Origin: Plasmodiophora brassicae
Taxonomy: Eukaryota
Reading direction: 5' to 3'
DNA: 20,000 nucleotides
Assembly (NCBI GenBank): GCA_036867785.1
Contig: CP145414.1
Coordinates: 1,425,324 to 1,445,323 of the forward strand
Below, in pieces: positions 17,508-17,747 of the stretch. How positions within the stretch are numbered: position 1 is the stretch's first letter; every line of letters begins with the position of its first letter. The translations under genes were made by a program, and so were the position numbers. Below the pieces are notes generated by a model that was given only the letters and a program-made list of their open reading frames with translations, made no database searches and was not told the origin of the DNA.

Positions 17508-17550
17508 TAAGTGAGTTCGTTTGCTTGGGGCTCTTTGCGCAAGAAGCTTC

Positions 17551-17747
17551 TGTGCTAACGCCGCCGCTGCCCACTACGGGGGCGGTCGGTCGCAAGAGTC
17601 GGCGCCTGGTGATATAACGAACTGATGTATTTGGACAGGATCGTCACAGCAAGGGCCGCTGCGGGGTCGAGTACGGTCATGATCATGTGACCGGGTGGCA
17701 GCAGCATCTGAGCAGCATCATCTGAGTACTGGTACTCTGGATGAACA
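17551..17747 (-). repeat. 5' LTR of the inner element
   Basis: 197-bp direct repeat ending 43 nt upstream of the gag ATG. Confidence 0.97.

What the first reader, a model, noticed from the sequence alone, without database searches (positions are those of the whole stretch)
17508..17625. No tRNA primer-binding site: twin palindromes and nested LTR-leader pairing instead
Seen: after the 5' LTR the element reads GAAGCTTC-TTGCGCAA, two abutting 8-bp palindromes (17535-17550), with no TGG complementary to tRNA CCA in that position. Nested inverted repeats link LTR and leader: 17514-17521 with 17616-17623 (8 bp perfect) and 17531-17539 with 17591-17598 (one bulge), enclosing a CCGCC...GGCGG hairpin at 17561-17585. 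In element sense the outer arm begins at the A of an initiator-like TCAGTT. Known: Tf1-group chromoviruses self-prime by pairing the RNA 5' end with a PBS next to the LTR. Inference: non-canonical priming (self-, dimer- or RNA-fragment-primed) with a geometry unlike Tf1, since the 8-bp partner lies about 29 nt from the LTR.
Basis: partly seen in the sequence, partly recalled or inferred. Interest (0 to 1): 0.75.

Follow-up and report, generated by a model that had tools for sequence, protein, structure and literature searches.

The report
Palindrome replaces tRNA primer site
A young retrotransposon at a chromosome end of the clubroot parasite has a short perfect palindrome where the tRNA primer site should be, and so do its many distant relatives, which suggests a way of starting reverse transcription that has not been worked out.

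Summary
The feature lies in a minus-strand Ty3/gypsy chromovirus of Plasmodiophora brassicae (LTR 17747→17551, single ORF 17507→12618). This copy is inserted into another copy of itself, and that outer copy is capped by the telomere. The 43-nt leader has no TGG. It opens with GAAGCTTC-TTGCGCAA, and with the last LTR base the first palindrome reads AGAAGCTTCT (17551-17542).

The comparison with relatives changes the reading. A perfect palindrome of 10 nt or more sits at the LTR end or upstream of gag in 14 of 14 assessable Gag-homologous families. The sequences differ between families and the palindromy is kept (11 of 14 within 70 nt of the ATG; binomial P about 2e-10).

No LTR holds a Tf1-type copy of the site.

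My best reading is that the palindrome is the primer site and is bound by a second copy of the element's own RNA, which is then nicked and extended. This is inferred, not shown. The nearest precedent is the unexplained "Conserved Hairpin Site" of fungal GalEa copia elements. Host tRNAs and the transcription start could not be tested.

The parts
17551..17747 (-). 5' LTR of the inner element (197 bp, TGTTC...GCACA)
   Evidence: Three 100% identical copies. Contigs of runs X1, X9 and X10 diverge at or within 3 bases of 17551 and 17747 (tables 7 and 8).
17542..17551 (-). 10-nt perfect palindrome AGAAGCTTCT. It starts with the last A of the LTR. It is the proposed primer-binding site equivalent.
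   Evidence: Homologous position in relatives. Self-duplex -13.3 kcal/mol.
17535..17542 (-). Second 8-nt palindrome TTGCGCAA, abutting GAAGCTTC
   Evidence: the only abutting pair in the window. It is the centre of the 18-nt quasi-palindrome 17530-17547 (pair I2).
17508..17550 (-). 43-nt leader between the LTR and the gag ATG, with no TGG
12618..17507 (-). Single gag-pol ORF of 1629 aa (zinc knuckle, protease, RT, RNase H, integrase, chromodomain)
   Evidence: Part of it is 100% identical to a P. brassicae protein over 84% of the ORF.
12609..12617 (-). Polypurine-tract region CACGGGGAG between the stop codon and the 3' LTR
12412..12608 (-). 3' LTR of the inner element
17748..17752 (-). Target-site duplication AGCAG, upstream copy. 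The downstream copy is 12407-12411. The intact site in the inner copy is 14791-14795.
17748..19576 (-). 5' part of the outer copy of the same element (equals 14790-16619, 99.8%). It lacks its own LTR and leader and is cut off by the telomere.
10028..12411 (-). 3' part of the outer copy, including its 3' LTR (10028-10224)
19577..20000 (+). Telomere repeats, mostly TTTTAGGG
   Evidence: The same repeat is reported for P. brassicae (PMC11191646, passages).
17514..17521 (-). Its partner is 17616-17623.
   Evidence: pair I4. At chance level.
17561..17585 (-). CCGCC...GGCGG hairpin in U5
   Evidence: Read. Partly present in the predicted fold.

Best explanation
[quoted passage not shown] It takes the place of a tRNA primer-binding site in this chromovirus and in a large clade of relatives.

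Shown:
- The site lies exactly where the primer's 3' end must pair.
- It is a perfect Watson-Crick palindrome in every assessable relative, although the sequence differs from family to family.
- It usually starts with the A of the LTR's terminal CA.
- No copy of it lies in the LTR.

Inferred:
- Because the only conserved property is self-complementarity, the pairing partner is the same site on a second copy of the element's RNA. The textbook picture is two genomic RNAs per particle.
- One strand would be nicked at the 3' edge of the 8-12-nt core, as RNase H does at the Tf1 self-primer.
- Its 3'-OH would then be extended over U5-R of the partner. I call this trans self-priming.
- A site primed by a copy of itself must be its own reverse complement to be inherited through plus-strand strong-stop synthesis. 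That would explain perfect palindromes without wobble pairs.
- It would also explain the 1-3-nt extension of the palindrome into the LTR end, if plus-strand synthesis reads a few bases further into a primer that carries U5.
- In the window the abutting TTGCGCAA lengthens the predicted dimer interface.
For: Element anatomy and LTR edges:
- fix the element and its LTR edges. The three LTR copies are identical and the target duplication is intact, so the copy is young and its priming presumably works.

Conservation of the palindrome:
- In one search, 9 loci had two repeat copies. In 4 of them (L006, L007, L019, L044) the LTR end is defined by different flanks, and a palindrome starts at or 1-2 nt inside it.
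- A Gag profile marks 15 of 80 loci plus the window.
- After dropping L014 (same family as L011) and L075 (gag runs off the contig), 14 of 14 have a perfect palindrome of 10 nt or more upstream of the gag ATG. Of these, 11 lie within 70 nt.
- The background is 446 such palindromes in 389,522 nt, giving binomial P 1.7e-10.
- One search lists 24 sites with different cores (GAATTC, GATATC, GTTAAC, AACGTT, AAATTT, TGATCA, AGCGCT, TTCGAA, AGCTT and others).
- In 20 of the 24, the A of a CA dinucleotide lies within the first 3 nt of the palindrome. This is my count.

Phylogeny:
- In the RT-RNase H tree (48 of 68 rows kept) the window lies in a clade of 26 rows with support 100. Twenty of these were scored palindromic, and 21 after (L034).

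No cis primer, and a favoured dimer:
- The longest copy of the palindrome in the 200 nt upstream is 3 nt in the window and never beyond chance in 20 elements.
- The predicted homodimer of 17565→17508 is -37.1 kcal/mol, against -21.6 for two monomers.

Precedents:
- RNase H cleavage of an RNA:RNA duplex creates the Tf1 primer (PMC7175516, passages).
- An unexplained palindrome that includes the final A of the LTR stands at the primer-site position in fungal GalEa elements (PMC5445492, passages).
Against: - No experiment or read data bear on the primer. Nicking, the identity of the nuclease and the trans geometry are all inference.
- A long self-primer (R-U5-site) raises an unsolved problem: what stops plus-strand strong-stop synthesis.
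- The host's tRNAs and small RNAs could not be searched, because no genome is held. A host RNA primer is therefore excluded for this element only by argument from the relatives.
- I picked the palindromes as perfect ones of 10 nt or more, so the absence of wobble pairs is partly built into the selection.
- Metagenome relatives come from unknown hosts, and some loci are near-duplicates (L011/L014, L019/L021, and L004/L007/L040 share one core).
- One clade member with a visible junction (L031, an old copy with LTRs 91.5% alike) keeps only a 6-nt palindrome.
- A distant relative, L057, has TGG at its LTR end.
Confidence: 0.45

Rival explanations
1. The palindrome is only a dimerisation or packaging signal, like the palindromic dimer initiation sites of retroviruses. 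Reverse transcription would be primed by a still unidentified host RNA (a tRNA half, internal tRNA segment or other small RNA) pairing at or next to it.
For: - Palindromes favour RNA dimers.
- Half-tRNA and partial-tRNA primer sites exist in other LTR elements (PMC6317226, passages).
- Host RNAs could not be searched.
- The window itself has no tRNA gene and no Rfam match.
Against: - The palindrome occupies the position directly after the terminal CA, where the primer's 3' end must pair.
- Nothing else is conserved after it apart from a short AGC/AGT in some elements.
- The cores differ completely between families, which no conserved host RNA could match.
- The GalEa authors note that retroviral dimer sites occur in addition to a primer site and lie in a loop (PMC5445492).
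Confidence: 0.2
2. Priming occurs in cis by a hairpin. The 3' half of the palindrome pairs with a downstream segment (in the window GCUUCUU with AAAGAGC, with one C.A mismatch and a GCGC loop), as in the GalEa 'Conserved Hairpin Site'. A cut there gives a 3' end that folds back on the same RNA.
For: - The window hairpin is read and appears in the predicted folds.
- AAAGAGC also follows the palindrome in L001 and L013, and L075 has a perfect 8-bp hairpin overlapping the palindrome.
- GalEa has CHSeq1 and CHSeq2 with one conserved mismatch (PMC5445492).
Against: - Across 24 sites, pairing between the palindrome and the next 60 nt is no better than shuffles (1 of 24 at p<0.05; Fisher p 0.096).
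- A 10-nt palindrome cannot fold on itself with more than about 3 bp.
- A cut downstream of the site would sever the template.
Confidence: 0.15
3. The transcript starts at 17623 and its first 8 nt (AGUUCGUU) pair with 17521-17514. Nested with the CTCTTGCG/CGCAAAGAG helix, this gives a Tf1-like self-primer displaced 29 nt from the LTR.
For: - The 8-bp perfect complement exists, and one arm starts at the A of TCAGTT.
- U5:leader duplex energy in the window is somewhat better than shuffles (p 0.08), and clearly better in a few relatives (L011 p 0.005, L001 p 0.025).
Against: - The helix is at chance level (35% of shuffles).
- The predicted fold does not use it.
- It is not a family trait.
- Priming there would extend U5 by 29 nt or need integrase to remove about 37 nt.
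- It would also consume the first 8 nt of R.
Confidence: 0.05
4. The palindromes are chance features of a short leader and have no function.
For: Within the window alone the statistics are weak.
Against: Positional enrichment in relatives gives P about 1e-10, with changed sequence and kept palindromy.
Confidence: 0.02

Closest known systems
Fungal GalEa (Ty1/copia) 'Conserved Hairpin Site' (PMC5445492; passages read; its additional files not seen)
   Same: There is no tRNA-type site. A 9-10-nt sequence directly after the 5' LTR is palindromic once the final A of the LTR is included. The authors propose that it plays the primer-site role and state that no known model fits. No complement is found in U5.
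   Different: GalEa belongs to the other superfamily (copia), and its core is nearly fixed (CTGATCAGT or CTAATTAGT). Here the core differs in almost every family. GalEa's second element, 12-41 bp downstream with a conserved A/A mismatch, has no significant counterpart here.
Tf1/Tf2 and Tf1/sushi-group self-priming (PMC7175516, PMC4600332 and PMC6317226; passages)
   Same: A chromodomain-bearing Ty3/gypsy element without a tRNA site. The short (8-12 nt) site abuts the LTR. Priming by the element's own RNA after a nick in an RNA:RNA duplex is the proposed logic.
   Different: In Tf1 the first 11 nt of the transcript are complementary to the site and fold back in cis. Here no LTR segment matches the site, and the site is its own complement.
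Skipper chromoviruses of dictyostelids (PMC5006619; passages)
   Same: Chromoviruses that lost the TGG site and have no complementary LTR segment. [quoted passage not shown]
   Different: Skipper has a degenerate polypyrimidine stretch after the LTR, not a palindrome.
Retroviral dimer initiation sites (recalled; mentioned in the PMC5445492 passage)
   Same: Short palindromes in the leader that pair two genomic RNAs.
   Different: They lie in a hairpin loop and exist in addition to a tRNA primer site.

Membership tests
Ty3/gypsy chromovirus (LTR retrotransposon) | Domain order RT - RNase H - integrase, with a C-terminal chromodomain | tested here: met
   Pfam: RVT_1 705-839, RT_RNaseH 952-1064, Integrase_H2C2 1183-1236, rve 1250-1350, Chromo 1561-1614. 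Chromo scores 23.5 bits, just under the 25.1 cut-off. rve scores 32.4 against 32.6.
Ty3/gypsy chromovirus (LTR retrotransposon) | Identical LTRs with TG...CA ends, a short target duplication and a polypurine tract | tested here: met
   197-bp LTRs 100% identical, TGTTC...GCACA, 5-bp AGCAG duplication, GGGGAG before the 3' LTR.
tRNA-primed LTR element | TGG within a few nt of the LTR end, complementary to a tRNA 3' end | tested here: not met
   The leader is GAAGCTTCTTGCGCAAAG... and the first TGG is 44 nt downstream.
tRNA-primed LTR element | Complementarity of the site to any host tRNA or tRNA half | not testable with these tools
   No genome is held for the window. The window has no tRNA gene.
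Tf1/sushi-type self-priming | A segment at the 5' end of the transcript (in the LTR) complementary to the site abutting the LTR | tested here: not met
   The longest match of the palindrome in the 200 nt upstream is 3 nt in the window. None of 20 elements exceeds chance.
Tf1/sushi-type self-priming | Phylogenetic placement in the Tf1/sushi group | not tested
   No reference sequences of that group were available from a tool. The named relatives are from Phytophthora and Aphanomyces.
GalEa-type Conserved Hairpin Site | A palindrome directly after the 5' LTR that includes the final A of the LTR | tested here: met
   AGAAGCTTCT at 17551-17542. The same holds in relatives.
GalEa-type Conserved Hairpin Site | A second segment 12-41 bp downstream, inverse complementary with one conserved mismatch | tested here: inconclusive
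   The window has GCUUCUU/AAAGAGC with one C.A mismatch but only a 4-nt spacer. Across 24 sites there is no excess pairing.
GalEa-type Conserved Hairpin Site | Membership of the GalEa clade of Ty1/copia | tested here: not met
   The domain order is that of Ty3/gypsy.
Skipper-type site | A polypyrimidine stretch after the left LTR | tested here: not met
   Only CTTCTT lies within the palindromes.

The most novel reading that the evidence does not exclude
A large, old clade of chromoviruses in oomycetes, Plasmodiophora and many uncultured protists, and convergently the fungal GalEa copia elements, starts reverse transcription by trans self-priming. The two packaged genomic RNAs pair through a palindromic primer site. 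One RNA is nicked there and serves as the primer on the other. The site is re-copied from the primer in every cycle, which keeps it a perfect palindrome while letting its sequence drift. This would be a third general way of priming LTR retroelements, beside tRNA priming and Tf1-type cis self-priming.
Probability: 0.35. Interest if true: 0.85.

Novelty: new variant of a known kind. Interest (0 to 1): 0.62.

Why it matters
How LTR retroelements without a tRNA site start reverse transcription has been solved only for Tf1. GalEa and Skipper were left as open cases by their authors.

This report gives a young, apparently active element with exactly mapped LTR ends. It also shows a clade-wide rule: a perfect palindrome of changing sequence that begins with the LTR's terminal A. 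Together these turn a curiosity into a hypothesis that can be tested with half-site and compensatory mutants.

The rule also matters for annotation. Tools that require a tRNA-type site will miss or misjudge this whole clade.

Tried and rejected
- Whole genome of the window: not held, so host tRNAs and small RNAs could not be compared with the leader.
- ARAGORN and Rfam on the window: nothing found.
- Viral-contig scan with the polyprotein: no relative found.
- The look-up of sequencing runs (after two busy answers): no RNA holder listed. All 24 runs are kept as contigs of guessed or unknown kind.
- Read laying, runs X1, X9 and X10: these behave like DNA and break at the LTR edges.
- Read laying, run X7: one 5124-nt contig equals window 12483-17606. 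It bridges both LTR/interior junctions and leaves 17607-17621 without cover. This is a single run of unknown kind, so I draw no conclusion on the transcription start or poly(A) site.
- General U5:leader pairing in relatives: weak and uneven (3 of 17 at p<0.05; Fisher p 0.03).
- GalEa-like downstream partner: not significant.
- An automatic 'first long ORF' screen for gag starts (31 of 77 ORF starts had a palindrome) was too noisy because broken ORFs were counted. I replaced it with the Gag profile.
- timed out and was rerun smaller.
- Papers PMC1563812 and PMC1369541 (Tf1 primer papers) are not held.
- Supplements are closed. The GalEa additional files (site alignments) and the plant survey's primer-site tables were not seen, and they may hold comparable palindromes.
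- Searches for a printed description of a palindromic primer site in oomycete or plasmodiophorid chromoviruses found only the GalEa paper and a bivalve TRIM paper that cites it.

Full report
**What is there**

The finding lies in an LTR retrotransposon on the minus strand. A self-comparison of the window and the junction sequences show the following.
- There are three 100% identical 197-bp LTRs (TGTTC...GCACA) at 17747→17551, 12608→12412 and 10224→10028.
- One complete element runs 17747→12412 and is flanked by a 5-bp duplication AGCAG (17752-17748 and 12411-12407).
- The target of that insertion is another copy of the same element (99.8% identical), whose intact site is 14795-14791.
- The outer copy has lost its 5' end. 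Its sequence stops at 19576, where telomere repeats begin.
- The single ORF 17507→12618 (1629 aa) carries RT, RNase H, integrase and a C-terminal chromodomain.
- Over 84% of its length the ORF is identical to a protein that NCBI names from Plasmodiophora brassicae.
- TTTTAGGG is the telomere repeat reported for that species (PMC11191646, passages).
- Contigs of three public runs diverge into several different flanks at or within 3 bases of 17551 and 17747. The LTR edges are therefore not in doubt, and more LTR copies exist.

**The observation**

- The LTR is followed by GAAGCTTC and TTGCGCAA.
- There is no TGG until the gag ATG, 43 nt later.
- The 8-bp complement 17623-17616 / 17521-17514 is present.
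- The bulged helix 17598-17591 / 17539-17531 is present.
- The CCGCC/GGCGG hairpin is present.
- A TCAGTT has its A at 17623.
- When the last base of the LTR is included, the first palindrome is 10 nt long: AGAAGCTTCT (17551-17542).

**Chance, within the window**
- One perfect 8-nt inverted repeat in 268 nt is what shuffles give (mean 0.56; 35% of 2000 have at least one).
- The abutting palindromes are unique in the window, but that alone is not compelling.

**Relatives**
- A search with the RT-integrase part found many proteins 35-60% identical. The named ones are from Phytophthora and Aphanomyces.
- A scan of metagenome contigs with an alignment of 16 of these proteins (A1) matched 520 stretches, of which 333 encode relatives. 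The best 80 were kept as loci.
- In one search, 9 loci had two repeat copies.
  - In four (L006, L007, L019, L044) the LTR end is defined by different flanks, and a perfect palindrome starts at or 1-2 nt inside it. Examples are ...CACA|ATAACGTTAT and ...ACAA|AGAATTCTT.
  - The distant L057 has TGG.
  - The old copy L031 keeps only CTCGAG.
  - The repeats of L014, L065 and L069 were not informative.
- A Gag profile built from 13 rows of A1 marks the gag ORF in the window and in 15 loci.
- I dropped L014 (same family as L011) and L075 (gag runs off the contig). In the remaining 14 of 14, a perfect palindrome of 10 nt or more lies upstream of the gag ATG.
  - Eleven lie within 70 nt and 13 within 130 nt.
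  - The background is 446 such palindromes in 389,522 nt.
  - Binomial P is 1.7e-10 for the 70-nt window and 8e-11 for the 130-nt window.
- One search lists 24 sites. Their cores are all different, and the flanks are often ...YAC|A-core-T|AGC.
- By my count on that list, in 20 of 24 the A of a CA dinucleotide lies within the first 3 nt of the palindrome.
- Three more sites turned up on inspection: L034, L042 and L068. L068 has twin palindromes like the window.

**Phylogeny**
- In an RT-RNase H tree, 48 of the 68 rows with a match had at least 330 aligned residues and were kept (quick method).
- The window sits in a clade of 26 rows with support 100. Twenty were scored palindromic, and 21 with L034.
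- Of the other five, four contigs lack the 5' region and L031 is degenerate.
- A sister group also holds palindromic sites (L048, L053, L060, L071) beside the TGG-type L057.
- The trait is therefore old and widespread, not a quirk of this copy.

**What is not conserved**
- No LTR holds a copy of its palindrome, so there is no Tf1-type cis primer.
- Duplex energies between U5 and the leader beat dinucleotide shuffles in 3 of 17 (Fisher p 0.03; window p 0.08).
- A GalEa-like partner downstream of the palindrome is not supported (1 of 24 at p<0.05; Fisher p 0.096). However, AAAGAGC follows the site in the window, L001 and L013.

**Mechanism (inference)**
- The 5' end of minus-strand DNA defines the end of U5, so the primer's 3' end must pair directly after the terminal CA. 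This is textbook reverse transcription.
- The only thing conserved there is self-complementarity with strict Watson-Crick symmetry.
- The simplest partner is therefore the same site on the second RNA. The predicted homodimer is -37.1 kcal/mol, against -21.6 for two monomers.
- A nick after the 8-12-nt core would give a primer of the size of the 11-nt Tf1 self-primer, which RNase H cuts from an RNA:RNA duplex (PMC7175516).
- Because the progeny's site is copied from the primer, a site primed by itself has to be a palindrome.
- If the plus strand reads a few bases further into a primer that carries U5, that would produce the observed extension of the palindrome into the LTR's terminal A, CA or ACA.
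- None of these steps has been observed.

**Comparison with what is known**
- The nearest described case is the Conserved Hairpin Site of fungal GalEa copia elements. It is palindromic with the LTR's final A, was proposed to act as the primer site, and fits no known model (PMC5445492).
- Skipper chromoviruses also lack a tRNA site and a cis complement (PMC5006619).
- Four literature searches found no description of a palindromic site in oomycete or plasmodiophorid chromoviruses. Supplements were closed, and subscription journals are not covered.

**Limits**
- Host tRNAs and small RNAs were not available.
- The transcription start and R are unmapped.
- The relatives come from unknown hosts.

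Noticed in passing
window 10028-19576: The element is inserted into a copy of itself, 99.8% identical, with an intact 5-bp duplication. This is a very recent self-nested insertion in the last 10 kb of a chromosome, which would fit chromodomain-guided targeting of subtelomeric chromatin.
   Followed up: partly
window 19541-20000: The outer copy is broken inside its coding region at 19576, and telomere repeats are added directly. The first repeats are irregular (T2-7AGGG, one TTAGGC) before regular TTTTAGGG. It looks like a healed chromosome break.
   Followed up: no
window 17555-19444 (-): A 629-aa ORF is an artefact of the nesting. It is the outer copy's protease-RT reading frame running on into the inner 5' LTR.
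   Followed up: yes
window 7781-9187 (+): A 468-aa ORF has a weak, sub-threshold match to the tyrosine-recombinase family (Phage_integrase, E 0.004, 17.3 bits against a cut-off of 27.1). It may be a remnant of a Crypton- or DIRS-like element next to the retrotransposon.
   Followed up: no
window 2040-2915 and 4384-6874 (+): Ordinary host genes lie close to the telomere: a 2OG-Fe(II) oxygenase, and a BAR - PH - ArfGAP protein that appears split by introns.
   Followed up: no
L007 636-665, L068 about 3040-3070, L075 5149-5180: Some relatives also have a second palindrome or a perfect hairpin directly after the first (AGCTGTCAGCT; GTGATCAC a GTACTAGTAC; TTTGCTAA gtga TTAGCAAA). This resembles the window's TTGCGCAA.
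   Followed up: partly
L001, L013, L027 and window 17527-17533: A short motif AAAGAGC(AAG) recurs 4-10 nt after the palindrome in the subgroup whose core is AAGCGCTT or AAGCTT.
   Followed up: partly
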